64,000 nucleotides of DNA, taken from Eledone cirrhosa (taxonomy: Eukaryota). A program made the position numbers and the translations under genes. Location of the stretch: assembly GCA_964016885.1 (NCBI GenBank), contig OZ024741.1, positions 76,012,001 through 76,076,000 of the forward strand, read 5' to 3'. This document shows positions 31,150 to 56,100 of the stretch, one piece after another; position 1 is the first letter of the stretch; the number at the start of each line of letters is the position of its first letter. The notes under the pieces were generated by a model. That model saw only the letters and a program-made list of their open reading frames with translations, was not told the origin of the DNA and searched no databases.

Positions 31150-31510
31150 TGTGGATATTGCTTCACCATGGGACCACAGGGTAAATGAAAAGAAAAGTGA
31201 GAAAATTGAGAAATACAAGCTGAAGAGAAAAATCAGGGAAACTGGAGAATCAGACACGTAGAAATGGTACTGATGCTTGGCGCACAGGGAGCAGTTAGTA
31301 GGGGGTTAGATGCATGGCTTGAGAAGCTAGGAATTACCATCAGGACAGGATTGTTGGAGAAAACAGCCTTGTTGGGAACAGCAAGAATTCTAAGAAGGGT
31401 GTTGGAAAGTTGAAGGAGAAAGAATGATCCAAAGTACCTTTAGCCATTGGCTATGGCTCACTCTTTTGGTACAGTGTTGGTGTAACATCTGCCAGAACAG
31501 AAGTGTTGCG

Positions 31511-31570
<60 letters not shown>
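31150..31570 (+). mobile_element. R4/Dong-type non-LTR 3' remnant (family E) with (AAT)n tail
   Basis: KIEKY...GLDAWLEKLGI...LEKTALLGTARILRRVLES* (stop 31411), then (AAT)n at 31511-31570. Confidence 0.8.
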
Positions 31571-31571
<1 letters not shown>

Positions 31572-31829
31572 GTTTCCTTATTGGCCACAAGGGCTAACAT
31601 GAAGAAAAACATTAGAAACGGCACAGAACAGTACAGGACGATACAAAGTGGTTTTTGGTCGTGTAAACAGGTTATAACAAGATAGAAATCGGGATAGAAA
31701 TAAAAAATTCAAACAACAAAAATTCCCCCAAAAGGGGGAAAACCTCCGAGGGTCACTTGTGGTGAAAACCAGACAAAAGACCACAGTCACCCTGACCACC
31801 AGGGCAACCGCCCTCAGTTTTCCCACTCC

Positions 31830-34800
31830 TCAGTCTACAGGCGCATACTCAGAGTGGGCCCGTTCACTCAGACCAGACTCGCCACTTTCACCCACCTTTC
31901 AACAAACTTACTAGAAGACACCACTTGCCTCTCCACCCTGATTTTCCTCTTCAAGTGAAACTTGAAAAAGCTAATCAGGGATTGGCCGGAGAGGAAAGTG
32001 TCCGTCTTCAACCCTTTCAACTTTGTCCACCACACACTGTCTTTCGCACCAGGCAGGTGAAAACTGCCTGCCCTTCCTCCTCTTTAAAGGAGGATGGCGG
32101 GGCTATCTGCACAATGGACTCAGTCGATAACCGGATCTGTCCTACACGCGACAACACCTGTTCAACATAGCTCCACAAGTCAGCAATCCTCGGGCATGCA
32201 GGATGGTTTCGTCGCCCTGTTCGCATATTGGACAGGCTCGGCTGACAGCACCTTCGTGCCTGTAGAGCTTATCCTGAACCGGCAACGCTCCCCGGTAGCA
32301 CTGCCAGGCCAGGGATTTCTGGAAGTTGTCCATAGGTCCCGGTCTGAAAGTTCTCTTGAAGAGAGCGAACAGCTGATTGTCTTCAATGCCCAGGGTCTCC
32401 CCGAGAACGTTGCCGCTCTTTCCCTCCACTAGCCCTCTATAGAACGCCGAGGTGGATGTTCCACCGGTACTAGTGCCCAGCTGGTAGAGGGCGGTGAGCG
32501 CTTGGGGACATTCCAGCTTCCAAGCGCTAGCCTCGGTCTTTTCCTGATCCAGGACTGCAGCTCCGTCAAGGAGAAAAACTGGGGAAAAGCGCGTCTGGCA
32601 AACGGCGACCACACCTGTTCACCGTCAAGGAAGCACCAGAGATGTCGCAGCCTCAGCGCATGTTTGCGCATCATCAGCCACGGCATGCCCAGTCCTCCAC
32701 GCAACGGGTGTTGACAGGAAATGGATCATCTGACCATGGGAGCACGTCCCTTCCACAAAAAGCGGAAGAGAAGGCGCTTCATTTTGGTCAGAGTTGAGCG
32801 GGGGCAAGGTACGACGGTGAGGCGGTAGTAGATGACGGATGCGATATACGGTCCATTTCTGGGTGAGAGAGGCCACCCTGCTCGTCACCTCGCTCCAGGT
32901 TTTCTCCATATGGAGGTTCGGACTGAACCAGACCCTGAGCAATTTAACCAGTCCTTCCGTCCAGCGCCCCACCGACTTTTCCTGGTTTATTTTTGTTCCT
33001 GTCACCGCTTCGTATTCCTTGAGAGCGGTGCCGAGCATCTGGACGTGTTTGGTGCTCGACACCACCACGGTGACGTCGTCGGCGTAAGCTGACACGGATC
33101 TCCCGCATCCCAGTTCACATGGGACCCTCCTCATCATCTCCAATTTGTGCAGTAACGGCTCGAGGGCCAGTGCGTACAAGAGGGGGCAACCCTGGCAGAC
33201 CGAGCGCATGATGCTGAAAGGGTGCGACAGGTGACCATTCACCCTGACAAACGAGCAGATGTCACTGTGCATCGCAGCGATCCAGCCCCTAAAAAGGGCC
33301 CGAAGCCGCTTCGAGGATCGCAGCCAGGTACCGATGGTCGACCCTATCAAATGCTTTAGATTGACCCAAGTTGATCAGGGCCCCACCCGTGCCAGGTTCC
33401 TTAACTACCCTCTCTATGATGTATCGCATGAGATGGAGGTTATCATGGATAGATCTGTTCGGAATGGCACATATCTGCGCCTCTCCCACCAGATCACCAA
33501 CGACAAGCACCAATCTCTTTGCTAACACCTTGGCCAAAATCTTAAACTCTGCGTTTAGCAGAGTTATGGGCCTGAAGTTGTCTATAACGTCCCCCTTGTT
33601 CAGGTCTTTTCTGAGCAGCGCCACCGCTTCTCGGCTCACAAAACTGCCAGTTGCAGTAGACATCTGCCAAGAGGTCGCTGAACAAGTCTGGCATATACAC
33701 ATAAAGCTCGTAGGGCTGACCATCCAAACCTGGCGATTTACCACTCGTGCAGTCAGACATCGCTTCCCATATTTCACCTGCTGTTATTGGCTTTTCACAG
33801 CACTGCGCTGCAGTCGTCGAGAGCCACGGCAGTCCGTCGAGGTATGCACCGAAGTCCATACTCCGATCCGGCCTGCCGCCGCTCCCAAACAATTGAGTAA
33901 AGTGCTGTTGAAAAGCCACACACATCTGCTCGGGTTCGAGCACGCGTTCTATCTCTGACAACGCAGCCTTAATGCTTTGCGTTGAAGAATTGGTCGAGTG
34001 CCAATCTCGCCGCAAGCACGTCGGTTGCGATGCCTGTCCTAAACGCCTCTTCTAGCTTTCTAACTAACTCTACCTCTACTCTATTTTCCTCTATCACTAC
34101 TTCTTTGCTAAACTTTATCAATTCTACTCTGATAGCCCTTTTCAGGGTAAACCACCACCTGTTGTTGACGATCGCACCCGTTAATGCACGGTTAACTAAT
34201 TCGCTAATCCGGTCTCTGTAAGCTTTGCGTGCCGGGAGCGACGCGTTCAGCTTCCAGTAGCCGGGCCCTTGCCTATGGAGTCTATCTAAGTCAACTTCAC
34301 AGATCACAAATTTGTGGTCCGTGTAGTCGACTACTTTAAATTGTGGACAACCTACACTAGCCTTATCTGTTTCCCTACAGAATACCCTATCTAAATACGA
34401 TCTGGATGACCCGATGCAGTTTGCTGATGTCCACATTGGCACATTCGGATAATCCATTCTATACCCGTCAGACAGTTCAAAACGTCTGAGCAGGTTGTTG
34501 AGGCTTTTACACCCTCCTGCCCTGTCTACTAGCCCCACATAATCCCAGCGTGCATCTAAGATACCGTTTCAGTGGCCCACTAACACTAAAGGGCGGGACG
34601 TTCCAAAAAAGGTCTCTACACGTCTGAAGAAATCTGGCCGTCCTGCCCCTGTTGGGGAGTAGATGGCTACTAGCCTGAAAGCATTGCCTTCGCTGCCGGT
34701 CACGTCCAGCACTACCGACTTACCTTCTGGGTCCAGGAAGATGGCCTGTATGGCGAGATCCAAGCCTCTCCGAAAAAGCACAGCAACTCCTCCCCCCGAT

Positions 34801-34996
34801 CCTGGACGGCTGGGAGGTGCGTATACATCGTAGCCGCCGAAGATCGGTGCGAAGGCTCATGCTTCGGAGATTCTCGTCTCGCTGATGGCCACCACATCTA
34901 TGTTTAGTGACCTGAGGTCATTGAGCAGGTGACCCTGCTTCCGAGATGACCCCCAGGTCACGTACATTTATACTGCCTATTCTCAAGTACGGCCAT
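31830..34996 (-). pseudogene. Tx1 ORF2 (APE-RT-zinc finger), fragmented
   Basis: Consecutive ORF fragments 34569-34781, 33969-34538, 33542-34015, 33289-33777, 32625-33350, 32429-32704, 32142-32612 and 32017-32226. Confidence 0.85.
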
Positions 34997-35029
34997 GTTG
35001 GATGAGAAACGGGATAAGTGAGAAAGGAT

Positions 35030-36760
35030 CACTTACCTTGATCATGTGGGGAAGGGACAGTAGAACCGTCCCTTTGGCTGGTCATGGGTGTTTCCAAGAT
35101 GATGTCGGTGTATATCCTCTTGGTAACCGACCCTCTGAAGTCTCCAACTTCGTTGGGGAATTTTTCTTTGAAAAGTTTATAATGTTCTATTTTAATTTCA
35201 ATGATGTTTATATTTTTCGGGAGAGTTCTTGGTGTTGGTTTGGGCGTAGTAATTATTTTCTGTGATGTCTATGTGCTGCTTTATATGTTGTAAGAGTTCT
35301 TTATTTGCCATGTTTATGGCTATGTACCTTTTTGGGGAAGGGGTGGTTTTGTTGCTGTTTTCTTGTTGTTGCTGTTGGGTGTGTGTGCTTTGTTGTGTTT
35401 GCGATGTTGGTGTTTTTGGTGATGCTGGTGGTGGTGTGGTTGTTGTTGGTGGTGGTGCTTGTGGTGATGGTGGTCGTGTTGCTGCAAGTCTTTACCCCTC
35501 TTTGTTTGCCTTCGCTTTTGGAGGGTGAAGCTAAGGATATTTTTGTTTTTTGTTTTTTTTTGTGGCAGACTGTTTGCCACTTCCCTCCCGCCTCATACTC
35601 CATGTCAGATTCCGTGGCGTCTGAGAGGGTATGAGCTCCACTGCTGTTGGTGGTGATAGTGGAGCCCGCTCCGGCGATTTTGTCGCCAGTGTAGCTACTA
35701 CGACTGTTGGTGTTGCCGCCACTGCTGCCGCTGTTTAGTTGTCCGTGGCCTTGGTACAGGTGCCACGGACGTTGCCCTCCTACATACCATGGAAGGGTCT
35801 TCTGCCTCTGTTGCCTGCCCTGCTCTTGGTAGCAGCGGATCAGGCATCGGAGGGGGGGCCTCTTCTTGGCTGTCGTCTGCGGGCAGAGCGCCCTGAGGTG
35901 ACCCTTCTTCCCACAGAGATAGCACTTTGGGCGCCTTCCTTCCATGCTTATATGGAGTTGGAGTCCTTCCTAGAGGTCTATGATATCTAGGATGGCCTCG
36001 ATGCACTCTTGGTCAGTCTGTATTAGTATTTGCATGCCTATTCCTGACCAGTTCTCTCTTCCCATTCTCTGTATTTGTAGTATGGTGGTCTTCTCCTCGA
36101 TTCCAGCAAGTACAGATGCGGCCAGCCAAGGTATGGGCACGTCAGGCGGGACCTGGGTCACTTTGACCCTCACAATTTTCTGCCCACAGTAGGAGGGCAC
36201 CAAGACTATCTCCTCACTCTTTAGGGTTTCCAAAGATTGAGACTTTGCATCTTGGGGGGTGGCGAAAAGTACGTCTACTGTGGCATACATTTTGCCTCAG
36301 GTGATGTGGGTTTTGCGCGCCCAGACGCACCCAAAGGCCTTTTGGATTTGAGCCTCTGTGGCTCTCTCCACTCGATATGACATTTTGCGTACGGTGCGGT
36401 AAGTCACCGTGCACAGCTGCTGGTCTTTGAAGAAATCGAGTGGAGGTTTCAGGGAAACTCTATTGCCATTTCTTATCACCATGGCTCTTGCGACTGCCAT
36501 CTCCTCTTCCGTGACTAGCACTGTCTCTATATTTTGGGCCACACCAGCGAAAGAAGTGGCCCCTTTTTCAGCGGCACCATTATTGCAGCCACTACTGCTG
36601 CTACTGGTCTTGTTGTTGGTGCTGTTGCTGTTGCTACTGCTACAAACGGGGTTGTTGGTGTTGTTGCTGTTATCACTGTTGCAGTTGGTTGTGTTTTTGG
36701 TGCCACCGTTGTTGTTTTCAGTGCAATTTGTATTGTTGCTGTTGATGTTGTCGTTGTTTA
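35030..36760 (-). pseudogene. Tx1 ORF1 (CCHC knuckle, Thr/Asn-rich low-complexity segments), fragmented
   Basis: ORF fragments 36297-36542, 35970-36290 and 35301-35945. Boundaries approximate. Confidence 0.7.
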
Positions 36761-36930
36761 TTTTCTTGTTAGTGGTGTTAATATCATTGTTACAATATTA
36801 TACTTTCCCCTTCACAGGGCAAAGTCCAAGGGCTTATATCCCTTGCAGAAGAAAAATTTAACAACAAATAATTATAAAAGCTATATAAAGCGACTTACTG
36901 GGAGCGAGCAAAAAGACGTCCAAATAGACC

Positions 36931-36967
<37 letters not shown>

Positions 36968-37114
36968 GGAAGAAGACGCACGAGGTGACGGAGGTCATGA
37001 AATCGCTCCCGTAAGTTTTGAATTTTTAACATATTTAAACCATTTGTGAAATAACAACTCTTAGCACAAATGCTACGTAAAGCACCCGGCTTGAGCCCCA
37101 AAAAATTCGGACCC

Positions 37115-38419
37115 AAAATATATTGTTATAAGGCTCAAATATTCAAATATTCAACTTTGTATTGTACACTGTATATCCAAAAAAAAAAATGGCTATAAAT
37201 GGAAGAAGAACCCCTCCCCTCCTCTCCTCTGGCTACACTATATAGGACAGCTAAACTCACCATACACCAGAAACTAGATACACCACCCACCCCATCATAT
37301 GTGTACACTAAACACAACAGCCAGATAACGACACATTTTCACCTTCACCGCCACCGCTCACTACGGCCATCATTACCACCACTATCCCATCACCGCCGCC
37401 ACCACCCCTTGACTCCGCTACAGCACCATCACTACAGTAATACGGTCACATCACCGCCACCACTGCCTCGGTATCGACATCACCACCACCACTGTCTCAG
37501 TATCGCTAACGCCGCCAGTCTCCCACTTCCCTGCTGGCTGCTACTCCCACATTATAGAATTCCTACTACTAACAAAGAGGAAGGCACCAAAATATATAGA
37601 TAGACCCAAAAGAAAAAAGGAAAAACAAACAACAAAACCAAAGCAGCACAGCAACAACAGCAAAAAACGAGAAAAACAAACAGAGAAAAACAAAAACAAA
37701 AAAAAGAAACCCCAAAAACGTAAAGAAAATATATTGTTATAAGGCTCAAAACGTAAAGAAAATATATTGTTATAAGGCTCAAAACGTAAAGAAAATATAT
37801 TGTTATAAGGCTCAAATATTCAAATATTCAACTTTGTATTGTACACTGTATATCCAAAAAAAAAAAAAAAAAAAAAATGGCTATAAATGGAAGAAGAACC
37901 CCTCCCCTCCTCTCCTCTGGCTACACTATATAGGACAGCTAAACTCACCAACACCAGAAACTAGATACACCACCCACCCCATCATCTGTGTACACTAAAC
38001 ACAACAGCCAGATAACGACACATTTTCACCTTCACCGCCACCGCTCACTACGGCCATCATTACCACCACTATCCCAGCACCGCCGCCACCACCCCTTGAC
38101 TCCGCTACAGCACCATCACTACAGTAATACGGTCACATCACCGCCACCACTGCCTCGGTATCGACATCACCACCACCACTGTCTCAGTATCGATAACGCC
38201 GCCAGTCTCCCACTTCCCTGCTGGCTGCTACTTCCACATTATAGAATTCCTACTACTAACAAAGAGGAAGGCATCAAAATATATAGATAGACCCAAAAGA
38301 AAAAAGAAAAAACAAACAACAAAACCAAAGCAGCACAGCAACAACAGCAAAAAACGAGAAAAACAAACAGAGAAAAACAAAAACAAAAAAAAAGAAACCC
38401 CCAAAACGTAAAGAAAATA
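37115..38419 (+). repeat. Tandem duplication (677-bp period) with a triplicated 33-bp junction unit
   Basis: 37115-37731 matches 37792-38419. AAAACGTAAAGAAAATATATTGTTATAAGGCTC occurs three times at 37715-37813. Confidence 0.9.
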
Positions 38420-38721
38420 AGAATGAAGAGAGAAGCAGGCGGACGGACAGAGAAGCGGGGGGAAAAAGTAAAACTTAAAAAACTAAAACTAAGTCAGACA
38501 TTCGAACACTACATTACAATGAAACTTATGCTTATTCATTTCTGGGGCCCTTTCTGCCTGTGTGTTTGTTTGTTTATGTGTGTTCGTATACAGCGTGGTG
38601 ATAATGCCACACAAGGGCCAAGTAGGATGGCGAACCCACAGATGGCTATGTAAACATACATTCGCCAATCCTCGATAAGAGTGTTTAAATATCGAACATA
38701 AACAGTTCGAATAACGGTGAA

Positions 38722-41700
38722 ATGGAGACTAGAACGTCATGTTACAGACTCTCACCCAACAGGTGCCCCCTGGCTCAGCAGCAGGAACCTGACTGTCAAC
38801 CAAATACTGCTGATGTTGGAGGAAGGAGAAGAAGGAAAGGGGCCAGAACCAACTGGACGAAAGAATTGAATAGAACTGTTATGCAATGCTACCTGAAAAG
38901 TAACCCCAAGGAGAGGGGCTACAGGAGACGGATGCATAACATCTGGAACGAGATTGGTCTATTTAAATTAGATGAACAAAAATTGGCCGGGCAGGCTCGG
39001 GTAATAAGAACTAATGGGTGGATAAGCGAGCTGGAACTGGAGGAACTGAGCAGAGAGAATGGCTTGGAGATGGCGGGTGTAGTATGCCAGACAAGCGAGC
39101 CGGTGGGAAATGAAGGTGAGGAGGTCCTGAGAACGGAGGAACCACCCGAAGCAGACAATGATCTGAGTACTGAGATAAATAATACCTGGAACAGAGATAC
39201 GGCCACTGAGGAGATGAATGCTGACGGGCTAGGACAAGATTCGGTTGACATCCTAAATTTAGTGGTAGATGAATTGAACAATGATAGTGGGAGACCTATG
39301 AACCTAAGATTTGTAGACAGGAAAAAGTTAAAAGAAACAACAGCTAAGGTAAACAAAGTCATCCCATACCTTGAGGCGAGGAGCCTTCACCAGTGCAACA
39401 ATATCCTCAGAGCAACAGCAAATACGGTGAGGAAACTACTTGGTATAAAAGCGAGAGGAAACAACAGACAAGAAAGAGCAGAGCCGTGGTGGAAGAAGCG
39501 ACTGAGTGGGCAAATCGGGGAAATGAGAAATGACATAGGAAAGCTTGAGTCACTACTGAATGGGACACTAAAAAACATAGGCACTAAAAATAGACTGGAA
39601 ATAAAATACAAAACTAGGAGTAAAAAGCTAAATATTATCATAGAGGAATTGAAGCAACGCATTGTAGCAAAGAGTGCAAAAATCAGGCGATACGAGAACA
39701 GAGTCAGTCAGTATAAACAGAACCGCATGTTCGACAACAACCAGAAGATGCTGTTTGGACAGCTTGAGGGCAAAGAAAGAGGCAACGACTTGATCCCTGG
39801 GGCGGAGCAAACTAAAACATTCTGGAGAGGAATATGGGAGCAGGATGTTAGACACAATGCCCAGGCAGGGTGGATTGAGACAGTACAGAGGGAGATCGGT
39901 GAGCAGGCACAGCAACAGACTGATTTGAGTATCACAGTTGAAACTCTTAAGGGACAAGCCAAAAAACTAACCAACTGGAAATCGCCAGGCCCAGATGGTG
40001 TGCAGGGGTATTGGATTAAACATCTAACATCCCTCCACCCGAAGCTGACGGCCATGTTCAATGACTGCTTGGTGTCGGGTGAGGTGCCAGAGTGGTTGAC
40101 AAAAGGTACCACAGTTCTGATAATGAAAGACCGAATCAAGGGTAATGATGCTACCAACTATAGACCTATCACATGTCTGCCCGTAATGTGGAAACTGTTG
40201 ACGAGCATTGTGTCTGAGGAAATCTACCATCACCTCCACACAAACAACTTGTTACCGGACGAACAGAAAGGATGCCGAAAGAAGTCACGTGGTACAAAGG
40301 ACCAGTTGCTTATTGATAAGATGGTAATGGGGAATTGCAGGAGGAGACACACTGATCTTGCCATGGGATGGATAGACTACAGAAAGGCATTTGACATGGT
40401 GCCTCATTCCTGGATCACCAAAAGCCTGGAGATCTTCAGGGTGGCGGATAACATCAGACAGTTGCTAGGCAGGAGTATGGGGTCCTGGGAGACAGAGTTG
40501 ACATCAACTGGAGTATCCTTGGGAAGCGTGAAGATCAAGAGAGGTATCTTCCAGGGAGATAGCCTGTCCCCTCTGTTGTTTGTCCTTGCCCTGATGCCCT
40601 TGACTATTATGCTGTGAAAAGTGAGAGCAGGATACAAGTTGGGAAGGGGAGAGCTTACCATCAATCACCTCCTCTTCATGGACGATCTTAAGCTCTTCGG
40701 GAAAAGTGAGAAGGAGTTGGATGTGCTTGTTGACACTGTCCGTATTTTCAGCAGTGATATATGTATGCAGTTTGGTATTGGTAAATGTGGAGTCATTGTG
40801 ATGAAGAGGGGTAGGTTGAGCAGAAGTAACGGGATCCAGATACCAACAGGTGAGATGATAAAGGAAATTGACTCTGAGGAAGGATACAAGTATTTGGGCG
40901 TTCTGGAGGCTGATGGCATAAAGAACAAAAAAATGAAGGAATTGTTAAGAACTGAATACATTCGGAGAGTAAGGAGCGTATTGAAGTCACATCTGAACAG
41001 CAGAAATGCCATAAGCGCAGTAAATTCCCGAGCTGTGTCTATTATTAGGTACAGTGCGGGAATTCTGAGCTGGAATGTTGCTGAACAGAAAGAAATGGAT
41101 AGGAAGACTAGGAAGCTATTGACTATCTACAACATGTTCCACAAGAGGAGTGATGTCGATAGACTCTACCTAAGGAGATCTGAGGGTGGAAGAGGTCTTA
41201 TCAGCATAGAGGACTGTGTTCAGATGGAGAAAAACAACCTATACAAATACGTGACCTATAGTAAGGAGCCAATGCTCAGAGCTGTACTGAAGGAGGGGAC
41301 AGTAGGCCAGGGGATGTCCAGGGAGGAAATAACATCAAGGAGGAAGAGCAGCCTTAAGGGAAAACCCCTTCATAGTACCTTCTTTGAGAAAACTGAATTT
41401 AGAGATCCACAGACATGGAACTGGTTGAGAAGAGGAGACCTCAAAAAGGCTACAGAAGGAATGCTAATGGCTGCGCAGGAGCAGGCCCTCAAAACGAAGT
41501 GGTTGAAGCACCATATCTACAAGGAGGAGGCCAGCCCACTGTGCAGGATCTGTGGAGAGAGAGAGGAGACTGTGGCTCACATTGTGTCCGAGTGAAAACA
41601 CCTAGCCCAGACCCACTATAAGGGCTGGAGACACGATGTGATGGGCAGGGTGATCCACTGGCACCTGTACAAAGTAAACAATCTACCACATTCTGAGAAA

Positions 41701-42114: not shown

Positions 42115-42200
42115 GGCTGCAGGTAGTGGCTTGATATTCAATCCAACGGACTTTCCAGTTAACCAACATCAATGACTGAGATTCAAGGAATAACAATAAC

Positions 42201-44999: not shown

Positions 45000-47652
45000 C
45001 ATTGAAGACCCCCTGTCCATAGAAGAAGTTGAAAACTTCTGGAGTAAGATTTGGAGTGATGAGAAGACATATAATGCTCATGTAGATTGGATTAGTCGCC
45101 TGGAAAAATCCTACACAAAAATCCTACACAAATTTAGAAGAACAGGCGTGGGAAAACATCTCTATAGCGGACTTAAGGACAGCACTCAATAAATCTCATA
45201 AATGGAAATCTCCTGGTAGAGACAGGGTGCTAAATTTCTGACTTTCTTCACTCCCGTGCACTCACAATATATTGGTCAAGCTGTTTAATGGAATTATGGA
45301 AGATCAAAAAAATACACCTGATTGCATAGCAAGTGGCATTACCTACCTGCTACCAAAGAACAACGAAACCAAAGATCAAAAAAACTATCGACCATAACCT
45401 GCTTGTCCACCACTTATAAACTATTAACCTCTATTCTCATGGAAAAAGTATACGTGTTTTTGGAGAACAATCTTTTCCCCATTGAACAAAAAGGGTGCCG
45501 ACGAGGTTCTTATGGTTGCAAAGATCAACTTTTGATTAATTGTATGATCCTTGAGAACTGTCATAATAAACAGAGAAATCTCAGTTCTGCATGGATCGAT
45601 TATAAAAAAGCCTTTGACAGCATACCACACACATGGATTCTGAAATCACTGGACATTTTCAAAATCTCACCTGTGATCTCAAACTTCCTTAAAAACAATA
45701 TGTCATTATGGAACACAAATCTCCAATTGTCTCATTCCACTGGGGTACTGTGCTCTAGGAATATAAACATCAACTGTGGTATATTCCAGGGTGACTCACT
45801 TTCACCCTTGCTTTTCTGCATAGCTTTAATACCCCTTACATCCGAACTTAATAGAACAGGGTACGGTTATAGAATTGACAACAAAAAAATAAGCCACCTA
45901 TTTTATATGGATGATTTGAAGCTATATTGCAAAGATAATGACGAACTGGAAGGCCTTTTGCAAACAGTAAAAACGTTTAGCGATGACAACAGGATGGAGT
46001 TTGGACTTGACAAGTGTGCAAAAGCCACTTTCAAGAAGGGGAAGCTCGTCAACTCAGACTCAGTTGAATTGGATGCTGAAACAATCATAAAGAAACTTAA
46101 GCAGGAACAAACCTATAAATACTTAGGGATTAATGAGGGCTCTGGCATACAGCATGCAAGTATGATAGAGAGGATAAGGAAAGAATGTTACAGGAGAGTA
46201 CGTGCAGTTCTGAGATCAGAACTAAATGCTCGTAACAAGGTGCTAGGCATAAATTCCTTGGCAGTCCCAGTTGTCACTTATAGCTTCGGTGTGTTGAACT
46301 GGAATATGAGTGAAATCAATAGAATCGACACCAAAGTTCGTAAGCTACTGAGCTGTAATAGGATGAAACACCCAAAAGCAGATGTGGATCGTCTTTACTT
46401 TCCTAGAACTCAAGGAGGCCGTGGCCTGATCCAATTTGAACTTGCTTACAAGACCACCATCATTGGACTGGCCAAATACCTTGAAACAACTAACGACTAT
46501 ATGCTGAAACTTGTTGAAAAGCATGAGAGAAGTAAGAAGCTTCATTCTATCTTGAAGCAGAGCAAAAAATATGCTACTGATCTCATGCTTGATACCCAGG
46601 TTGGACAGACTAAAAAAACTGTTGCAACTGATGCTGCTAGGCACATAAAATCACTGGCAAAAGCAAAAGGGCAAGGACAATTAGCATCAAATTGGGAGCA
46701 GAAACCTTTGCATGGCAAATATGTGGCCCGTAGCAAACAAGCTGATGTTGACCAAAAGCACACCCATCAGTGGCTATGTAGTTCAGGGCTAAAGGCGGAG
46801 AGTGAAGACTTCATCTTAGCTGCCCAAGATCAAAGCTTATTGACTCGTAATTACCAGGCCAATGTGATGAGAAACGGAATAAACCCAAAGTTCCGATTCT
46901 GCAATGCTGAGGTTGAAACAGTGGATCACTTAGTCTCTGGATGTAAAGTTTTAGCACCAGTAGAATACAAATATAGACATGACAGAGTTGGCCAATATCT
47001 ACACTGGGTAATATGTCGGCATTACAAAATGAAAGCTGAAGACAGGTGGTACAATCATCACCCTGAGGCTGTAACTGAAGGAGAAAAAGTAACGATTCTC
47101 TGGGACTTTCCTGTACATACTGACAGGACCATAAAAGCAAATAGACCTGACATCATTGTAAAAGATCAACATAACAAGGTCTGTTTATTGATAGATATTA
47201 GTATCCCATGTGATCACAATATCGCGGCAAAAGAATTTGACAAGCTACGAAAATATAAAGATCTGCTTATTAAAATTGAGAAAATGTGGCACCTCAAGGC
47301 CGTTACAATACCAGTGATTGTGGGAGGACTGGGAATGATCAAGAAAGGAACAGAACAATATTTGCGAATGATTCCTGGTTTACCCTCTCTACACGAGGTG
47401 CAAAAAATTGTTTTGACTGGTACTGCACACGTATTGAGAAGAGCACTATCTCTGTAAGATTGATATCCCTCCTTGTATTTACATATGCATATGCACATGT
47501 GTATATATGTATAGTTCTTTCTTTTTTTAAAAATTATAATCGATGTGCTGTATTAACTGACTTACCAATGCACACTGTGAATTTATTTGCCCTAGGTGTC
47601 AGGACGACACTTGGCATATATCTCATAAAAAATAATGAAAGTAAATAAAAAC

Positions 47653-47694
<42 letters not shown>
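45000..47694 (+). mobile_element. R4/Dong-type family C, 5'-truncated
   Basis: ORF 45322-47457 with WIDYKKAFD, GIFQGD, YMDD, RHD and RPDIIV. Frameshifted at the 5' end. (AAT)n tail at 47652-47694. Confidence 0.9.
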
Positions 47695-47695
<1 letters not shown>

Positions 47696-47699
47696 TAGG

Positions 47700-50600
47700 G
47701 AATGCTACCTGAAAAGTAACCCCAAGGAGAGGGGCTACAGGAGACGGATGCATAACATCTGGAACGAGATTGGTTTATTTAAATTAGATGAACAAAAATT
47801 GGCCGGGCAGGCTCGGGTAATAAGAACTAATGGGTGGATAAGCGAGCTGGAACTGGAGGAACTGAGCAGAGAGAATGGCTTGGAGATGGCGGGTGTAGTA
47901 TGCCAGACAAGCGAGCCAGTGGGAAATGAAGGTGAAGAGGTCCTGAGAACGGAGGAACCACCCGAAGCAGACAATGATCTGAATACTGAGATAAATAATA
48001 CCTGGAACAGAGATACGGCCACTGAGGAGATGAATGCTGACGGGCTAGGACAAGATTCGGTTGACATCCTAAATTTAGTGGTAGATGAATTGAACAATGA
48101 TAGTGGGAGACCTATGAACCTAAGATTTGTAGACAGGAAAAAGTTAAAAGAAACAACAGCTAAGGTAAACAAAGTCATCCCATACCTTGAGGCGAGGAGC
48201 CTTCACCAGTGCAACAATATCCTCAAAGCAACAGCAAATACGGTGAGGAAACTACTTGGTATAAAAGCGAGAGGAAACAACAGACAAGAAAGAGCAGAGC
48301 CGTGGTGGAAGAAGCGACTGAGTGGGCAAATCGGGGAAATGAGAAATGACATAGGAAAGCTTGAGTCACTACTGAATGGGACACTAAAAAACATAGGCAC
48401 TAAAAATAGACTGGAAATAAAATACAAAACTAGGAGTAAAAAGCTAAATATTATCATAGAGGAATTGAAGCAACGCATTGTAGCAAAGAGTGCAAAAATC
48501 AGGCGATACGAGAACAGAGTCAGTCAGTATAAACAGAACCGCATGTTCGACAACAACCAGAAGATGCTGTTTGGACAGCTTGAGGGCAAAGAAAGAGGCA
48601 ACGACTTGATCCCTGGGGCGGAGCAAACTAAAACATTCTGGAGAGGAATATGGGAGCAGGATGTTAGACACAATGCCCAGGCAGGGTGGATTGAGACAGT
48701 ACAGAGGGAGATCGGTGAGCAGGCACAGCAACAGACTGATTTGAGTATCACAGTTGAAACTCTTAAGGGGCAGGCCAAAAAACTAACCAACTGGAAATCA
48801 CCAGGCCCAGATCGTGTGCAGGGGTATTGGATTAAACATTTAACATCCCTCCACCCGAAGCTGACGGCCATGTTCAATGACTGCTTGGTGTCGGGTGAGG
48901 TGCCAGAGTGGTTGACAAAAGGTACCACAGTTCTGATAATGAAAGACCGAATCAAGGGTAATGATGTTACCAACTATAGACCTATCACATGTCTGTCCGT
49001 AATGTGGAAACTGTTGACGAGCATTGTGTCTGAGGAAATCTACCATCACCTCCACACAAACAACTTGTTACCGGACGAACAGAAAGGATGCCGAAAGAAG
49101 TCACGTGGTACAAAGGACCAGTTGCTTATTGATAAGATGGTAATGGGGAATTGCAGGAGGAGACACACTGATCTTGCCATGGGATGGATAGACTACAGAA
49201 AGGCATTTGACATGGTGCCTCATTCCTGGATCACCAAAAGCCTGGAGATCTTCAGGGTGGCAGATAACATCAGACAGTTGCTAGGCAGGAGTATGGGGTC
49301 CTGGGAGACAGAGTTGACATCAACTGGAGTATCCTTGGGAAGCGTGAAGATCAAGAGAGGTATCTTTCAGGGAGATAGCCTGTCCCCTCTGTTGTTTGTC
49401 CTTGCCCTGATGCCCTTGACCATTATGCTGCGAAAAGTGAGAGCAGGATACAAGTTGGGAAGGGGAGAGCTTACCATCAATCACCTCCTCTTCATGGACG
49501 ATCTTAAGCTCTTCGGGAAAAGTGAGAAGGAGTTGGATGTGCTTGTTGACACTGTCCGTATTTTCAGCAGTGATATATGTATGCAGTTTGGTATTAGTAA
49601 ATGTGGAGTCATTGTGATGAAGAGGGGTAGGTTGAGCAGAAGTAACGGGATCCAGATACCAACAGGTGAGATGATAAAGGAAATTGACTCTGAGGAAGGA
49701 TACAAGTATTTGGGCGTTCTGGAGGCTGATGGCATAAAGAACAAAAAAATGAAGGAATTGTTAAGAACTGAATACATTCGGAGAGTAAGGAGCGTATTGA
49801 AGTCACATCTGAACAGCAGAAATGCCATAAGCGCAGTAAATTCCCGAGCTGTGTCTATTATCAGGTACAGTGCGGGAATTCTGAGATGGAATGTTGCTGA
49901 ACAAAAAGAAATGGATAGGAAGACTAGGAAGCTATTGACTATCTACAACATGTTCCACAAGAGGAGTGATGTCGATAGACTCTACCTAAGGAGATCTGAG
50001 GGTGGAAGAGGTCTTATCAGCATAGAGGACTGTGTTCAGATGGAGAAAAACAACCTATACAAATACGTGACCTATAGTAAGGAGCCAATGCTCAGAACTG
50101 TACTGAAGGAGGGGACAGTAGGCCAGGGGATGTCCAAGGAGGAAATAACATCAAGGAGGAAGAGCAGCCTTAAGGGAAAATCCCTTCATAGTACCTTCTT
50201 TGAGAAAACTGAATTTAGAGATCCACAGACATGGAACTGGTTGAGAAGAGGAGACCTCAAAAAGGCTACAGAAGGAATGCTAATGGCTGCGCAGGAGCAG
50301 GCCCTCAAAACGAAGTGGTTGAAGCACCATATCTACAAGGAGGAGGCTAGCCCACTGTGCAGGATCTGTGGAGAGAGAGAGGAGACTGTGGCTCACATTG
50401 TGTCCGAGTGTAAACACCTAGCCCAGACCCACTATAAGGGCTGGAGACACGATGTGATGGGCAGGGTGATCCACTGGCACCTGTGCAAAGTCAACAATTT
50501 ACCACATTCTGAGAAATGGTATGAGCATAGGCCAGAGGCGGTGATGGAGAACAATCAGGTGAAGGTGCTATGGGATTTTAGGATACAGACGGACAAAAAA

Positions 50601-51034
50601 CTGGAACACAATAGACCTGACCTGGTGGTTGTGGACAAAGAAAAAAGATCGTGCCTGATTGTGGATGTGGCCTGCCCGTTCGACACGAGAGTGCAAGAGA
50701 AGGAGAGGGAGAAAATTAACCGATACCAGGACCTAAAGTGGGAGGTGAAAAGGATTTGGAACTGCCATGAAGTCAAAGTGATCCCGATTGTCATAGGCGC
50801 ACTGGGGACTATCTCCAAAAGTTTCCAGGGATGGTTAAAGAAAATCGGCCCCTTCACGCTTTTTGGAACGCTTCAAAAGGCATGCTTGCTTGGAACAGCA
50901 AGAACCCTCCGATACGTCCTGAATATCTGAGGCTGCAGGTAGTGGCTTGATATTCAATCCAACGGACTTTCCAGTTAACCAACATCAATGACTGAGATTC
51001 AAGGAATAACAACAATAATAATAATAATAATAAT
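47700..51034 (+). mobile_element. R4/Dong-type family A copy 2, 5'-truncated
   Basis: Starts at the position equivalent to ~38886 of copy 1, near-identical to it, with an (AAT)n tail. Confidence 0.92.
47748..50930 (+). CDS. Uninterrupted 1060-aa RT + CCHC zinc finger + restriction-like endonuclease (native N-terminus missing)
   Basis: ORF track. Motifs FMDD, CRICGEREETVAHIVSEC, RHD, RPDLVVVDKEKRSCLIVDV and KINRY. Confidence 0.85.
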   Translation: MHNIWNEIGLFKLDEQKLAGQARVIRTNGWISELELEELSRENGLEMAGVVCQTSEPVGNEGEEVLRTEEPPEADNDLNTEINNTWNRDTATEEMNADGLGQDSVDILNLVVDELNNDSGRPMNLRFVDRKKLKETTAKVNKVIPYLEARSLHQCNNILKATANTVRKLLGIKARGNNRQERAEPWWKKRLSGQIGEMRNDIGKLESLLNGTLKNIGTKNRLEIKYKTRSKKLNIIIEELKQRIVAKSAKIRRYENRVSQYKQNRMFDNNQKMLFGQLEGKERGNDLIPGAEQTKTFWRGIWEQDVRHNAQAGWIETVQREIGEQAQQQTDLSITVETLKGQAKKLTNWKSPGPDRVQGYWIKHLTSLHPKLTAMFNDCLVSGEVPEWLTKGTTVLIMKDRIKGNDVTNYRPITCLSVMWKLLTSIVSEEIYHHLHTNNLLPDEQKGCRKKSRGTKDQLLIDKMVMGNCRRRHTDLAMGWIDYRKAFDMVPHSWITKSLEIFRVADNIRQLLGRSMGSWETELTSTGVSLGSVKIKRGIFQGDSLSPLLFVLALMPLTIMLRKVRAGYKLGRGELTINHLLFMDDLKLFGKSEKELDVLVDTVRIFSSDICMQFGISKCGVIVMKRGRLSRSNGIQIPTGEMIKEIDSEEGYKYLGVLEADGIKNKKMKELLRTEYIRRVRSVLKSHLNSRNAISAVNSRAVSIIRYSAGILRWNVAEQKEMDRKTRKLLTIYNMFHKRSDVDRLYLRRSEGGRGLISIEDCVQMEKNNLYKYVTYSKEPMLRTVLKEGTVGQGMSKEEITSRRKSSLKGKSLHSTFFEKTEFRDPQTWNWLRRGDLKKATEGMLMAAQEQALKTKWLKHHIYKEEASPLCRICGEREETVAHIVSECKHLAQTHYKGWRHDVMGRVIHWHLCKVNNLPHSEKWYEHRPEAVMENNQVKVLWDFRIQTDKKLEHNRPDLVVVDKEKRSCLIVDVACPFDTRVQEKEREKINRYQDLKWEVKRIWNCHEVKVIPIVIGALGTISKSFQGWLKKIGPFTLFGTLQKACLLGTARTLRYVLNI

Positions 51035-51348
51035 AGAGAGCTAAAACATTACCAGTGGTTGTAGGTGCTCTATGAATGATACCTAAGGGGTCTAATGATT
51101 ACTTATCCCAAATCCCAAGAAACCCACATACAGAAGAAATACAGAAGATAGTACTAATGGGAACTGCCCATATACTAAGGAAAATTCTGTCGATATAAGT
51201 ATATCAAAACACCCAAAGATAAATGTTTGTGTGTGTATGAGTTTTTCTTGAACATGGCAGACCTTGTTGTCTCTTGAGGTCATTGGTTGTGACTTGGTGT
51301 TAACTCATATGAACATAAAGCAAGATAAATGAAAAAAAAAATAATAAT
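51035..51348 (+). mobile_element. R4/Dong family B-like 3' remnant
   Basis: Diverged copy of 44675-44970 (IQKIVLMGTAHILRKILSI*). Confidence 0.85.
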
Positions 51349-51349
51349 A

Positions 51350-51610
51350 CACCACCTCACAGCATCAAGTAAATTCAGGTTGTCTTTAGAACTTTGGGCT
51401 TGAGACCACTAAAACTGAAAGGGTATCTTAAGAATATAAACCTGGAATCATAAGCTGTTCTCCAACAGAAGAATGCCTTGTTGGGCATTGCACGTAGTCA
51501 GAAAAGTAATGTTTGTCTAAGGTCCTTGTTGAGATTAAACACACAGTAGAATATCTAATAATTATCAAATTTACTGTGTAAACCATCAATAATAATAATA
51601 ATAATAATAT
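51350..51610 (+). mobile_element. Old R4/Dong-type 3' remnant (family F) with (AAT)n tail
   Basis: QKNALLGIAR-like terminal motif, degenerate 3' hairpin, (AAT)n at 51587-51608. Confidence 0.6.
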
Positions 51611-54600
51611 TGATTTCTTTATTCACCACAAAGGGATTACATTAAGAAAAAATTAGGACAACACAGGACGAACACATATAGTGTGTTTATGTGTGAGTGT
51701 GTAAACAGGTTTAACAATAATAAAAGAAAGGCAACAATAAAAATGTTAACAAAGAGAATATATCAATAGAGAGGAGACGTTTGAGGGCTGCTCAAGGAAA
51801 AAATCCCATAAAACTACTTGTGCCCTGATCTCCAGGGAAAGTGCCCTGTCCCAGTTGTCCTCCTGCAATCAACAGGTGTACACACAGAACAGGCTCATTC
51901 ACCCCGGGCCATACTCACCTCTCTCACCCACCTTTTAGCAAACTGGCTGGAATGCAGCACTTCCCTCTCTATCCTGATATCCTCTTCAAGGGAAACCTGA
52001 AAAAATGAATTAGGGTTTCACCGAAGAGAAAAGTGCTTGTCTTTAACACTTCCAAACGTGTCCACCATACAACCTCTTTTGCCATGGCCACCAGACAGAT
52101 GAAAACAGCCTGCCTTTCCTGGCTAAAGGAAGGTGGCAGGGCAATTTTCTTAATGGACTCAGCTAATAGCTGGATTCATCCTACATGTGACAATAGGTGT
52201 GCGACATAAACCCACATGTTAGCAATACTCAGGCACTGGATGAGTGTGTGTAGGATGGTTTTGTCACTCTGGCACATCTTGAATAGGCCCTACTGATGGT
52301 ACTTCCATGCCTGTAAAGTTTATCTTGAATTGTCAAAGCTCCCCAGTAGTACTGCCAGGTCAGGGATTTGTGTATTATCCATGGGACCTGGACCGAAAGT
52401 CCCCTCAAAAAGAGTGGTTAGTTGATTTTCGTTGATGTCTAGAGTTTCCCCAACAATGTCATCATTTTTATTTGCCACTAACCCCCTATAGAGCACCAAG
52501 GTGGAGTTTCCAAGTGCTCTTTTGCAGTGTCTGCTTGACTTAGGACTGTAGCTCCATCAAGGAGATGAGCTGAAGAACACGTGTCTAGAGAATGGCGACC
52601 ACACCTGTTCACTATTAAGGAAAAGACGGAAATGTCATAGCCTCAGTGCATGTTTGCACATCATCAACCACGACATTCCCAGTTTTCCATGCAACAGCAG
52701 ATGGACCGCCTGACCATCAAAACATGTCCCTTCAATAAGAAGCAAAAGAGCACATGCTCCAGTGCAGTCAGATAAAGCTTAGAACAAGGGATGATGGTCA
52801 GACGGTAGTAGATAGATGTGATGTATGCGTTTGTCAGCTCTGCCACCTTTTCAGTATCATCACCTTTGTTCAGGTCCTTTCTCAGCAGTGCTACTGCTCA
52901 TCAGCTCACAGAACTGGGAATTCTCCTATTCTACTGCCAGGTGCAGTAGACATCTGCCAAGAGGTCACAGAATAAGTCTGGCATATAAACATAAAGCTTG
53001 TAGAGCAGACTTTCCAAACCAGCCGTTTAACCCTTTCTGCAACATGTCATCATATCGTGTATTTCAGCAGCTGTTATCGGTTTTTCGCAATACTCTGCCT
53101 CCATCATCACGAGCTGAGGCAGGCAGTCAAAGTAAACATTAAAGTCCATCTAGCTATCTGGCCTACTGTTTCTTCTAAACAGCTGGATAAAGTGCTGCTG
53201 AAAAATCACACACATTGCTTGGCATCAAGTAACATGTGTCTGCCAAAGTGTGCCAAAGATTGGATTGAGACTTTGTTGCCATGCTGTGCCTCTGCCACTC
53301 AGGCCTATTGAATGGCTTTCATTCTCTCGTGTCTAAGAGCACACATCTTATCTATGATAATGCAGCCTTCATGCTCAGTATTGAAGAATTGGTCTAGGAC
53401 CAATATCGCTGCAAGCATGTCAGCTGCTATTTGCCTCGTTTAGTTTTTTAACTAGTTCTTCCTCTACTCTAGTTTTTTCTATTGCTATAGCTTTAGTAAA
53501 CCCTATCGATTCTACTCTAATCGCTAATTTTGATGGCAAGCCACCATTTGTTGTTGACGTTTGCCCCTGTCAATGCCTAATTCACTAATCCGATCTCTGT
53601 AGGCTTTATGCAATAAAAATGACATGTTCAGCTTCCAGTAACCAGGTCTCTCTCTATGGAGCCTATATGGATTAACCAAAGATCACAAATTTGTGGTCTG
53701 TATAGTCAGCTACTTTAAATTGTATATAACCTATGCTATTCTTATCTACTTTCCTACCGAATACCCTATCTAGATGTGATCTGGATGACCTGATGCGTTT
53801 AGTCCATGCCCAAATTGGTATATTCGGGAAATCCAGTGAGTACCTGTCAGACAGTTGGAAGCGTCAGAGCAGGTTTGCAAGGCTTTTATATCCTCCTCTC
53901 TTATCTGCTAGTCCCACTCAGTTCCAGTGTGAATCCAAGATACTGTTACTAACAATAAAGAGCGCGTCATTCCTAGAAAGGTCTCCAGGCGCCTGAAGAA
54001 ATCATTTCATCCTGCCTCTGTTAGAGCATAGACTGTGACTAGCCTGAAGGCATGCTCTTTGTTAGTGGTCACATCCAGCACCACCGACTTACCTTCCAGG
54101 TCCAGGAAGATGGTCCGTATTGCGAAATCCAAGCTTTTCTGGAACAACACACCAATTCCGCCTCCAGATCTCATGCTACTTGGAGTTGCATACACCTTAT
54201 AGCCACCCAAAATGGGTGTGAAGATTCGTGCATTGAAAATTCTGGTCTTACTGATGACCACCACATCTATGCCCAGTGACCTGAGGTCATTGAGCAAGTG
54301 GCCTTGCTTCCAAGATGACTCCAGGCCACATGCATTTACACTGTTTACCTAGCTTGAGTGTAGCCATGTTCGATGAAGAAGAGGAAAAAGTGGGAAGTAC
54401 CACTTACCTTAGATTTTGGGGAGGAAGGATAGTTGATCCATCCTTCCAGCTAGTTATGGGCTCTTGCACCAAAATGTCGGTATAGTTTCTTTTGGAGAGT
54501 GTCCTTCGGAAGTCTCTAATTACATCGGGAATTTGTATTTTAAATGTGTGATTTGTATAATTTGTATGTTTGTAGGTAGTGTGCCTTTTTGGGGTGTGAT

Positions 54601-56100
54601 ATAGTCTTTTTCTCTAATTGTGGAGTTGTGTTGTATATAGTTCAGTAGTTTTCTATCGTTAGTGTTTACTGGTGTGCAGTGTGCGATGTTGGTATCCTTT
54701 TGTTGTAATTGCTGTTGTTGATGTTGTTGCAGATGTAGGTTTGGTTTGTTTGGGATATTGTTGGTGTCTGTGGTGTCTGTTGTGGTGTTGATGCTGGTGG
54801 TGGTGGGGATGAGGGTGTATGTGTTTGTTGCCTTCCTGCTTTTGCTATTTTTTCTCACTTTCACCCCCTCTTTTCGAGGGCGAAGATAGGGAGTTATTTC
54901 TTTTCTTTTTTTGTTTTGCAGACTGCTTGCCAATCCTCACCTTCATCAGAATGTATGTCCAACTGTGCGACGTCGGGGAGTGGCATGTCTTTGATGGGCA
55001 TTGGTGTTGTTGCTGATAGTGACAGTTCTGTTGGCGCTGTTGGTAGTGGTGTTGGTCTTGTTCCAGTTATTGGTTTTGCTGTTGCTGATGTAGCTGCTGC
55101 TACTGGTGTCCGTGTTGCTGTTGTTTTTCTTAATGTTGGTGATGTTGCTGTCTGGGTTTTGGTATTGTTGGTTGCTGTTGGTGAGTTCTTTGGTGTTGGT
55201 AAGAGAAGGGCTTGCCTCTCTTTTCTCTTCAGTGTTAGACAGAACACAATTAGATGATTTATTGAAAGATGTGACATTTGATCTACCTCTCCTCTACTCT
55301 AATGGGTAGGATGCTGCTGCTTGGGAGAGGGATTTGTTCCAGAAAGGCATCCCTATTTTCATGACTGGTTTGGATGAGGATTTCAACCCCATCCCCGACC
55401 AGTTCTATTTTTAGTTTAGTAGAGTTCGAGGATTTTTGACTTTTTCTCAATGTCTACTGTGACTGCAACAATTAGCCAAGGAATGTTTATTTCAGGCAGT
55501 ACCTGCTGGACACAGATCCTTGCTAGTTTCTATCGGCAGTAGTAAGGGACTAGCAGGATCTCTTCACTTTGTAGAGGTTTTAGGGAGTGAGATCTTGCTT
55601 CCTCTTCTGTTGAAAATCTCACCTCTACTGAGCCAAAACTCTTGGATGTTAGATTTTAGGTTCCATACTGAACCTAAAGCATTTTATATTTGAGCCTCTG
55701 GATCTCTCTACCTTCCTTGTTTTTAAACCAATAATACAGTATATCACCAAGCAATAAACCATATTTTAGATGAGTTAACAGGAGTGTTGAGGCTGACACT
55801 ATGGCCAGCTGTTTCCACCAGCCGTTTAGCCTATTGTACTTCTTCCTCAAAGTAAGTTACACTTTGGAAGGAAGATTTCATAGTACTAGGGAAGGCATCT
55901 ATCATAAGAATTGCTTCTTTTCTTCATCTCCCACATTTTGGTTGTCTCTATCTTTAGACCTTTATATTTGGATAATTTTTTCCTCTTCTTTTAGAGATAA
56001 CATTATGATCAGTTAGGACTTTCCACACTGGATCAATCAAGAGAAACTTCTTATTTTTTTATGATCCTTAATAACAATATACAGTTTATTAGCCTAAACT
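51611..56100 (-). mobile_element. Second, more decayed Tx1-type element with internal RT deletion
   Basis: Collinear with 31571-36930 (LNDLRSLGIDVVVISKTR, FLDLEGKSVVLDVT). The ~700 bp equivalent to 32870-33580 is missing at ~52850. 5' end approximate. Confidence 0.8.

What the first reader, a model, noticed from the sequence alone, without database searches (positions are those of the whole stretch)
31150..56100. 25-kb self-extending retrotransposon stack at (AAT)n with strict clade-specific orientation
Seen: seven R4/Dong-type copies or remnants (E, A1, B plus its inverted piece, C, A2, B-like, F) from about five divergent families follow one another, separated by (AAT)n runs. All are on + apart from the foldback arm. 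Both Tx1 elements are on -. Known: Dong-type R4-clade elements target (TAA)n. Inference: each insertion leaves an (AAT)n tail that is the next target, so the locus is a multi-family landing pad used from old remnants to near-intact copies. It might also act as a silencing-RNA source.
Basis: partly seen in the sequence, partly recalled or inferred. Interest (0 to 1): 0.75.

Follow-up and report, generated by a model that had tools for sequence, protein, structure and literature searches.

The report
Retrotransposon stack on AAT repeats
Nine copies of two unrelated kinds of jumping gene sit end to end on short AAT repeats, one kind facing each way, likely because each new copy lands in the repeat left by earlier ones; such stacks are common across this probably octopus genome, so this locus is one example of a genome-wide habit, not a special site.

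Summary
The stack is real: seven R4/Dong-type pieces of five families on +, two Tx1-type copies on -, an AAT run at all 8 inner junctions and none at the outer edges. Genome-wide, 5' junctions of truncated Dong copies abut (AAT)n (A 12/14, B 10/13, C 13/18; background 1/5000), and full-length Tx1 5' ends abut (ATT)n (42/46). So the repeat is a target, not only a tail. The oldest copies (76-89% to nearest relative) lie at the edges and the youngest (99%) inside. The locus is not special: stacks of 12-26 kb recur on one chromosome arm, and this scan reported the pattern at least eight times on other DNA of this genome. Dong on TAA is published; an ATT-seeking Tx1 (plus SINE) was not found in the papers searched. 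Side results: 2 of 1,589 Dong leaders lack exactly a GT...AG stretch, suggesting a spliced 5' intron; families A and B share a leader; the foldback looks like a cDNA snap-back junction. Silencing role and assembly junctions could not be tested. Interest 0.45.

The parts
31133..31510 (+). E: old 3' remnant of an R4/Dong-type family (end of the restriction-like endonuclease region and 3' UTR); no AAT run at its 5' edge
   Evidence: tblastn 42% to A2 C-terminus; best relative 89%, relatives encode R4-type C-termini
31511..31570 (.). (AAT)9 AAC (AAT)10: tail of E and, read as ATT, tail of Tx1-a
31571..36930 (-). Tx1-a: full-length, frameshifted two-ORF APE element (ORF1 zinc knuckle; ORF2 endonuclease + RT)
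   Evidence: Pfam RVT_1, zf-RVT, weak zf-CCHC; 68-83% aa to ORF2 of relative L067, which has Exo_endo_phos + RVT_1 and L1 ORF2 as best PDB hit; nearest relatives 86-93%
36931..36966 (.). (AAT)12 between the 5' ends of Tx1-a and A1 (head to head)
36967..42200 (+). A1: full-length Dong-type element; 1.75-kb leader (donor-like GTAAG at 37011; internal 629-bp duplication shared with L077), single ORF 38722-42114 with two stops
   Evidence: N-terminal Myb-like fold
42189..42239 (.). AAC/AAT run, (AAT)13 pure
42240..42643 (-). Inverted duplicate of the first ~400 bases of the truncated B copy (arm matches 42682-43082, 394/401; loop ~35-41 nt): snap-back-type 5' junction
   Evidence: both arms carry private changes, 2 and 5
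42644..44981 (+). B: 5'-truncated Dong-type copy, one frameshift near 43916
   Evidence: nearest relatives 99%
44982..44999 (.). (AAT)6
45000..47652 (+). C: 5'-truncated Dong-type copy of a third family
   Evidence: nearest relatives 96%
47653..47694 (.). (AAT)14
47695..51013 (+). A2: family A copy lacking the first 1.9 kb; open frame with RT, CCHC and PD..D..K motifs; 99.07% to A1
51014..51034 (.). (AAT)7
51035..51339 (+). B-like: older 3' remnant of the B lineage
   Evidence: 86% to B; best relative 90%
51340..51348 (.). (AAT)3 after an A run
51349..51587 (+). F: oldest R4-type 3' remnant
   Evidence: best relative 76%; 9 of 11 relatives examined give R4-type protein hits
51588..51608 (.). 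(AAT)7: tail of F facing the ATT tail of Tx1-b
51609..55890 (-). Tx1-b: old, internally deleted Tx1-type copy; 5' end not recognisable, no repeat run at the outer edge
   Evidence: 69-72% to Tx1-a; tblastn; best relatives 79-81%

Best explanation
The stack of nine retrotransposon copies likely grew by repeated, independent insertions into one (AAT/ATT)n tract: Dong-type copies read AAT on their sense strand and Tx1-type copies read ATT, likely because the two enzymes prime reverse transcription from opposite strands of the same repeat. Shown: the anatomy, the repeat at 5' junctions genome-wide, the polarity rule and the age gradient. Inferred from the known target-primed mechanism: Dong's restriction-like endonuclease nicks the ATT strand first and the Tx1 APE nicks the AAT strand first. 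Also inferred: each insertion leaves repeat on both sides (tail and/or duplicated target), so the target is kept and multiplied, and the array grows from the inside with the oldest copies pushed to the edges. The locus is a typical product of a genome-wide process and needs no function of its own.
For: 5' junctions of truncated copies abut (AAT)n: A 12 of 14, B 10 of 13 (2 more AAG), C 13 of 18; background 1 of 5000 (16, 17 and 11 longer copies ran off the fetched DNA). Full-length Dong leaders: 22 of 30 AAT, 3 AAG. Tx1-a family 5' ends: 29 of 29 other loci ATT-rich and 42 of 46 exact ends preceded by ATTATT. Neighbours within 7 kb on C1: R4-R4 same strand 42/42, Tx1-Tx1 19/20, R4-Tx1 opposite 26/28; 78 of 208 gaps under 10 kb against 6.9 under a uniform null. 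Of the first 30 (AAT)6+ tracts listed on C1, 24 abut a library element, and 38 of 38 contacts have the predicted polarity. Ages, left to right: 89, 86-93, 99, 99, 96, 99, 90, 76, 80%. A1 and A2 are each closer to copies elsewhere (99.4%) than to each other (99.07%). Dong on (TAA)n in insects, molluscs and cnidarians is stated in PMC7998251 and PMC3812793.
Against: Truncated Tx1 copies are less strict: of 13, 3 ATT by rule (1 more by eye), 2 CTT, 1 ACT, 1 AAT, the rest none; several break points may be subfamily divergence. 5 of 18 truncated C copies lack the repeat. Neither outer edge of the stack has a run, so the founding tract is not visible. One Tx1 copy in an (ACT)n tract has almost no ATT tail (L174), so tails may be partly target-derived. 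The uniform null ignores regional TE density. The polarity count includes the elements' own tails and is partly circular. No nicking data and no empty alleles were seen.
Confidence: 0.75

Rival explanations
1. Polarity and repeat preference come from the RNA, not the nuclease: loosely specific nicks occur in fragile A/T-rich tracts, and only the strand that pairs with the RNA's 3' tail (AAU repeats for Dong, AUU for Tx1 and the SINE) primes reverse transcription.
For: Each clade's tail matches its target in phase; related tracts (AAG, CTT, ACT) are also used; the SINE, which has no nuclease, follows the ATT rule 62 of 63 times.
Against: Insertions into pure (TTC)n or (AAG)n stretches offer poor pairing with an AUU/AAU tail yet keep the purine/pyrimidine polarity (L181, L183, L104). 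Published work credits target choice mainly to the endonuclease (PMC4494074 passage). Family A carries a Myb-like domain.
Confidence: 0.15
2. The stack was built by recombination or tandem duplication between AAT tracts of scattered elements, or was joined by the assembler through AAT runs.
For: All junctions run through simple repeats; no record in the 7 runs laid spans the locus, and the read tool skips the repeats.
Against: Each copy has its own 5' break point, and A1 and A2 are not sister copies. There is an orderly age gradient and no N in the window. Single insertions into unique DNA show the same 5' repeat. One 287-nt contig with 0-2 differences covers 51312-51578 across the short B-like/F junction, though with under 31 laid letters on the left.
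Confidence: 0.05
3. The locus is a host-maintained trap that yields silencing RNAs (piRNA-cluster-like): read-through from A1 would make a 400-bp hairpin at the B foldback, and leftward transcription would be antisense to the Dong copies.
For: The foldback exists; Tx1-a and A1 are head to head.
Against: Both foldback arms have drifted at about the family's rate (2 and 5 private changes). The R4 copies all lie on one strand and are not complementary to Tx1. Stacks like this are commonplace, so nothing marks this one out.
Confidence: 0.05

Closest known systems
Dong (R4 clade; Bombyx Dong, DongAg, snail DongBg, ostracod Dong1/2; 'Dong-R4' in octopus repeat annotations)
   Same: Single ORF with divergent N-terminal Myb/SANT domain, no N-terminal zinc fingers, RT, C-terminal CCHC and restriction-like endonuclease; (TAA)n target (PMC7998251, PMC3812793 passages). 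Dong-R4 is listed as recently active in Octopus vulgaris (PMC13282606, Table 1).
   Different: Five coexisting families stacked with an unrelated clade; a long leader shared between families A and B; a donor-like GTAAG with rare precise GT-AG loss. Bombyx Dong has a 5' HDV-like ribozyme (PMC3774820 passages); Rfam found none here (inconclusive).
Microsatellite-specific Tx1 families: Kibi (TC)n, Koshi (TTC)n, crocodilian (TTCC)n/(TTTC)n
   Same: Two-ORF APE elements of L1/Tx1 type sitting in a pyrimidine-rich repeat on the sense strand (PMC4494074 passages and section 15); some copies here sit in (TTC)n.
   Different: Main target (ATT)n, in a mollusc-like genome, shared in opposite polarity with an RLE clade; not found in the papers searched. 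Relationship to Koshi/Kibi not tested by phylogeny.
Tx1-Mar / SINEU pair of crocodilians
   Same: A SINE shares target and polarity with a Tx1 family (PMC4494074 passages); here the SINE 3' end resembles the Tx1 3' end and has an ATT tail in 76 of 95 copies.
   Different: The SINE here looks tRNA-like by eye (not tested), and the target is a microsatellite.
L1 SpIREs (spliced integrated retrotransposed elements)
   Same: Retrocopies lacking a GT-AG stretch of the 5' UTR (PMC5860796, abstract only).
   Different: Here in an RLE element; rare (2 of 1,589 leaders); the acceptor AG is absent from the A1 leader in this window.
Snap-back 5' junctions of R2-mediated insertions (PRINT)
   Same: The cDNA 3' end primes synthesis on the cDNA itself before joining, giving antisense sequence at the 5' junction (PMC11371274 passages).
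   Different: Natural, fixed in a genome, 401 bp long, with only about 1 nt of microhomology.

Membership tests
R4/Dong clade | Single ORF with RT | tested here: met
   RVT_1 E 7.6e-24 in A2, also B and C; full 1141-codon frame in relative L072; best PDB hits R2 proteins
R4/Dong clade | C-terminal CCHC and PD..D..K restriction-like endonuclease, no APE | tested here: met
   Motifs read in A2, B and C; REL motif by pattern in A1, whose last CCHC cysteine is a stop; no Exo_endo_phos hit
R4/Dong clade | N-terminal divergent Myb/SANT domain | tested here: inconclusive
   Model pLDDT 85; top structural matches are mostly Myb-type domains (NgTRF Z 5.7, Zeste 5.7, TRF1 5.5, R2Bm residues 146-215 Z 5.0), but all Z are under 8; Foldseek gave nothing at E 0.001
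R4/Dong clade | No N-terminal zinc fingers (unlike R2) | tested here: met
   No CCHH/CCHC pattern in the first 350 residues of A1
R4/Dong clade | (TAA)n target | tested here: met
R4/Dong clade | RT phylogeny grouping with named R4, Dong and Rex6 against NeSL and Hero | not testable with these tools
   The 120 listed homologues carry no informative names; no named reference of these clades could be fetched
R4/Dong clade | 5' HDV-like ribozyme (Bombyx Dong, Ascaris R4) | tested here: inconclusive
   No Rfam ribozyme match in 31000-57000; no descriptor search run
Tx1 clade | ORF2 with N-terminal APE and RT of L1 group | tested here: met
   Relative L067: Exo_endo_phos E 2.9e-14, RVT_1 E 9.8e-29; best PDB hit L1 ORF2 E 1.2e-42; window copies match it
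Tx1 clade | ORF1 with zinc knuckle | tested here: inconclusive
   zf-CCHC E 8.3e-4, just under the curated cut-off, in Tx1-a; none scored in L067 ORF1
Tx1 clade | Sequence-specific target | tested here: met
   42 of 46 and 29 of 29 full-length ends; weaker for truncated copies
Tx1 clade | RT phylogeny with Tx1, Kibi, Koshi, Keno rather than L1 proper | not testable with these tools
   No named references on hand; the label Tx1 rests on architecture, target specificity and recalled clade knowledge
piRNA cluster | Strand-biased small RNAs from the locus | not testable with these tools
   No RNA run was offered

The most novel reading that the evidence does not exclude
Two unrelated retrotransposon clades and a SINE form one self-propagating system that makes and occupies most (AAT)n microsatellites of this genome by priming on opposite strands. 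In addition, the Dong families, unlike the ribozyme-processed Bombyx Dong, are Pol II units with a shared, swappable leader that holds a working spliceosomal intron, shown by two independent spliced retrocopies.
Probability: 0.4. Interest if true: 0.65.

Novelty: new variant of a known kind. Interest (0 to 1): 0.45.

Why it matters
Dong on TAA repeats is known, and the stack is one of many. If the reading holds, it adds three things. First, an APE and a restriction-like endonuclease that converge on one short repeat from opposite strands: a clean pair for testing whether the nuclease or the RNA tail sets target and orientation. Second, a concrete cause for AAT microsatellites and TE hotspots in such genomes, and a warning for AAT markers and assemblies. 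Third, first hints of splicing and leader exchange in R4-clade elements, testable with ordinary RNA-seq.

Tried and rejected
DNA search with the A 3' end returned nothing because common words are skipped; replaced by an exact pattern. An exact pattern from C hit only this copy; replaced by a DNA search. No RNA holder was listed, so expression, splicing and small RNAs were not examined. Contigs and RAD reads of 7 runs were laid on two stretches: repeats are skipped and no piece spans the stack, so neither assembly nor polymorphism was tested. Rfam gave only a weak miRNA-like score on the foldback hairpin, far below the family threshold. Foldseek found nothing for the N-terminal domain. Splicing of Tx1 leaders: all 11 variants at the donor-like site in three leaders were point changes, none a deletion. 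The 6 extra bases at the start of A2 resemble the leader's first bases, but a pattern search was at control level (60 against 129) and its loci were not examined. Classical twin-priming inversion was rejected for B, because the inverted arm duplicates rather than replaces the adjacent sequence. The Xiong and Eickbush 1993 paper is not held; Kojima and Fujiwara 2004 was seen only as cited. Repbase and paper supplements were not seen and may list an ATT-specific Tx1.
Full report
Setting. The window is G000:C2:76012001-76076000 of a 3.0-Gb assembly. It is microsatellite-rich and has no N. An octopus is likely but not established; this rests on size and repeat content, and on published O. vulgaris annotation listing Dong-R4 and L1-Tx1 among recently active LINEs (PMC13282606, first of three parts and passages read).

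Observation. From 31133 to about 55890 lie E(+), Tx1-a(-), A1(+), an inverted arm plus B(+), C(+), A2(+), B-like(+), F(+) and Tx1-b(-). All 8 inner junctions carry an AAT run of 3-20 units; the remaining 39 kb hold one run of 4 or more units. A, B and C carry RT and C-terminal CCHC and PD..D..K motifs, and are 39-60% identical as proteins. E and F are remnants whose relatives encode the same C-terminus (11 of 11 and 9 of 11 loci). A1 is full length, with a 1.75-kb leader also found in L077. The Tx1 copies match an APE+RT ORF2 whose best solved relative is L1 ORF2. Neither outer edge has a repeat run.

Target or tail? Exact 3'-end patterns occur 3,759 (A), 4,099 (B) and 6,107 times (a young Tx1 subfamily). 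I took the first 30 loci listed for each, and the 29 best non-self hits for C. Where the 5' break fell within the fetched DNA, (AAT)n abutted it in 12 of 14 A, 10 of 13 B (2 more AAG) and 13 of 18 C copies, against 1 of 5000 random positions; 16, 17 and 11 copies ran off and were not scored. Full-length Dong leaders gave 22 of 30 AAT and 3 AAG. Tx1-a family 5' ends had an ATT-rich tract in 29 of 29 other loci, and ATTATT in 42 of 46 exact ends genome-wide. Truncated Tx1 copies were looser: of 13 scored, 3 ATT (1 more by eye), 2 CTT, 1 ACT, 1 AAT, the rest none.

Polarity and stacking are genome-wide. Among 234 markers on C1 up to 62.86 Mb, neighbours within 7 kb were same-strand for R4-R4 42/42 and Tx1-Tx1 19/20, and opposite for R4-Tx1 26/28. 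Of 208 gaps between 3' ends, 78 were under 10 kb, against a mean of 6.9 (maximum 19) under a uniform null. The twelve longest clusters span 12-26 kb. Across all fetched loci, pieces touching a run read AAT for R4 294 of 296 times, ATT for Tx1 112 of 113 and ATT for a SINE 62 of 63 (own tails included, so partly circular). Of 44,308 (AAT)6 tract ends followed by a non-A base, the first 30 were examined: 24 abut a library element, 14 on both sides, and 38 of 38 contacts obey the rule; by eye, the other 6 abut another ATT-tailed repeat or a Tx1-like end. The scan has reported this pattern at eight other places of this genome.

Order of growth. Identity to the nearest fetched relative runs E 89, Tx1-a 86-93, A1 99, B 99, C 96, A2 99, B-like 90, F 76, Tx1-b 80%. 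The old copies are at the edges, which fits growth from inside a tract, with F and Tx1-b tail to tail as the oldest pair. A1 and A2 (99.07%) are each closer to copies elsewhere (99.4%), so they are separate insertions, not a local duplication.

Mechanism. In target-primed reverse transcription the nicked strand is the one complementary to the element's RNA (established knowledge). A sense flank of AAT then implies priming from the ATT strand for Dong, and from the AAT strand for Tx1. That the nucleases impose this is inferred. A predicted N-terminal domain of A resembles Myb-type DNA-binding domains weakly (Z 5.0-5.7), as described for R4/Dong (PMC7998251 passages). The rival, strand choice by pairing of the RNA tail, is not excluded. 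Whether repeat units are added or only duplicated needs empty alleles.

The foldback. The inverted arm duplicates the first 401 bases of the truncated B copy (394/401), with a loop of 35-41 nt and about 1 nt of microhomology. Both arms carry private changes. This matches the snap-back junction class of R2 insertions (PMC11371274 passages). It explains the one exception to the polarity rule without a second insertion.

The leader. A full-length B copy (L068) shares its first 670 nt with an older A copy at 82%, and 370 nt with A1 at 76%, while the ORFs do not align as DNA: leaders were likely exchanged between families. Dong and three Tx1 leaders all show a donor-like GT motif 30-45 nt from the start. 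Of 1,589 exact Dong leader starts, 1,574 keep T at the second donor position and 15 do not. Of these 15, 10 are small local changes, one runs into a SINE, two (L196, L197; tandem neighbours) lack the stretch from the GT to 5 nt short of the AG, and two (L198, L202) lack exactly GT...AG, about 167 nt, without microhomology. A direct search found just these two. Both are full-length B copies with AAT tails on different contigs, and each is closer to an unspliced copy (96.7%, 97.1%) than to the other (95.4%). This suggests rare spliced retrocopies like L1 SpIREs (PMC5860796, abstract only). Against: n is small, the acceptor is A-rich, A1 here lacks that AG, 0 of 11 Tx1 variants were deletions, and there are no RNA data.

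Literature. Dong on TAA, Kibi on TC and Koshi on TTC: PMC3812793 passages, PMC4494074 passages and section 15. Clade background: PMC4640811 passages. Dong ribozyme: PMC3774820 passages. Octopus Dong: PMC9115989 and PMC8967140 passages. Searches (listings) showed no ATT-specific Tx1 or shared-target stacks, and one search (listing) no intron in an RLE element. Subscription journals, Repbase and supplements were not seen.

Verdict. The locus is an ordinary instance of a genome-wide process, half known (Dong) and half apparently undescribed (the ATT-seeking Tx1 and SINE in opposite polarity). Assembly and silencing remain untested. New variant of a known kind; interest 0.45.

Noticed in passing
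L198 (G000:C2:299.03 Mb) and L202 (G000:C3:75.89 Mb); donor homologous to window 37011: Two non-sister full-length B copies lack exactly a ~167-nt GT...AG stretch of the leader: candidate spliced retrocopies; L196/L197 lack nearly the same stretch.
   Followed up: yes
window 36967-37350 versus L068, L061: Dong families A and B, 45% identical as proteins, share a leader at 76-82%: likely 5' UTR exchange.
   Followed up: partly
window 11065-11520 (two tandem copies) and many loci: An abundant ~185-nt SINE with an ATT tail (76 of 95) and a 3' end resembling the Tx1 3' end; ATT upstream in 40 of 84 full-length copies, AAT in none. Likely moved by the Tx1 family.
   Followed up: partly
window 47695-47702: A2 starts with six bases matching the very start of the family leader and then jumps 1.9 kb, so it may be an internal deletion rather than a 5' truncation.
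   Followed up: partly
G000:C1:55.42-55.45 Mb, 56.17-56.18 Mb, 57.09-57.10 Mb: Head-to-tail runs of 3-5 Tx1 3' ends about 6 kb apart: pure Tx1 tandem arrays.
   Followed up: no
window 5697-8879: An APE+RT LINE with one frameshift ending in (TAGA)4, unrelated to the stack and not in an AAT run; RTE-like by recall.
   Followed up: no
window 29971-30997: A 425-bp inverted repeat at 99.8% next to (TA)22, just left of E; may have removed E's 5' junction.
   Followed up: no
window 61382-64000 and 60005-60096: A 31-bp-period satellite array running off the window, with a detached three-unit piece.
   Followed up: no
window 23685-24785 and 29492-29880; 3030-3328; 17770-17967: Several short inverted or palindromic elements beside (TA)n runs, MITE-like.
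   Followed up: no
L303, L304, L308, L309, L316, L331, L332; window ~11285-11318: A second short repeat whose 3' end also abuts (AAT)n tracts in the ATT polarity.
   Followed up: no
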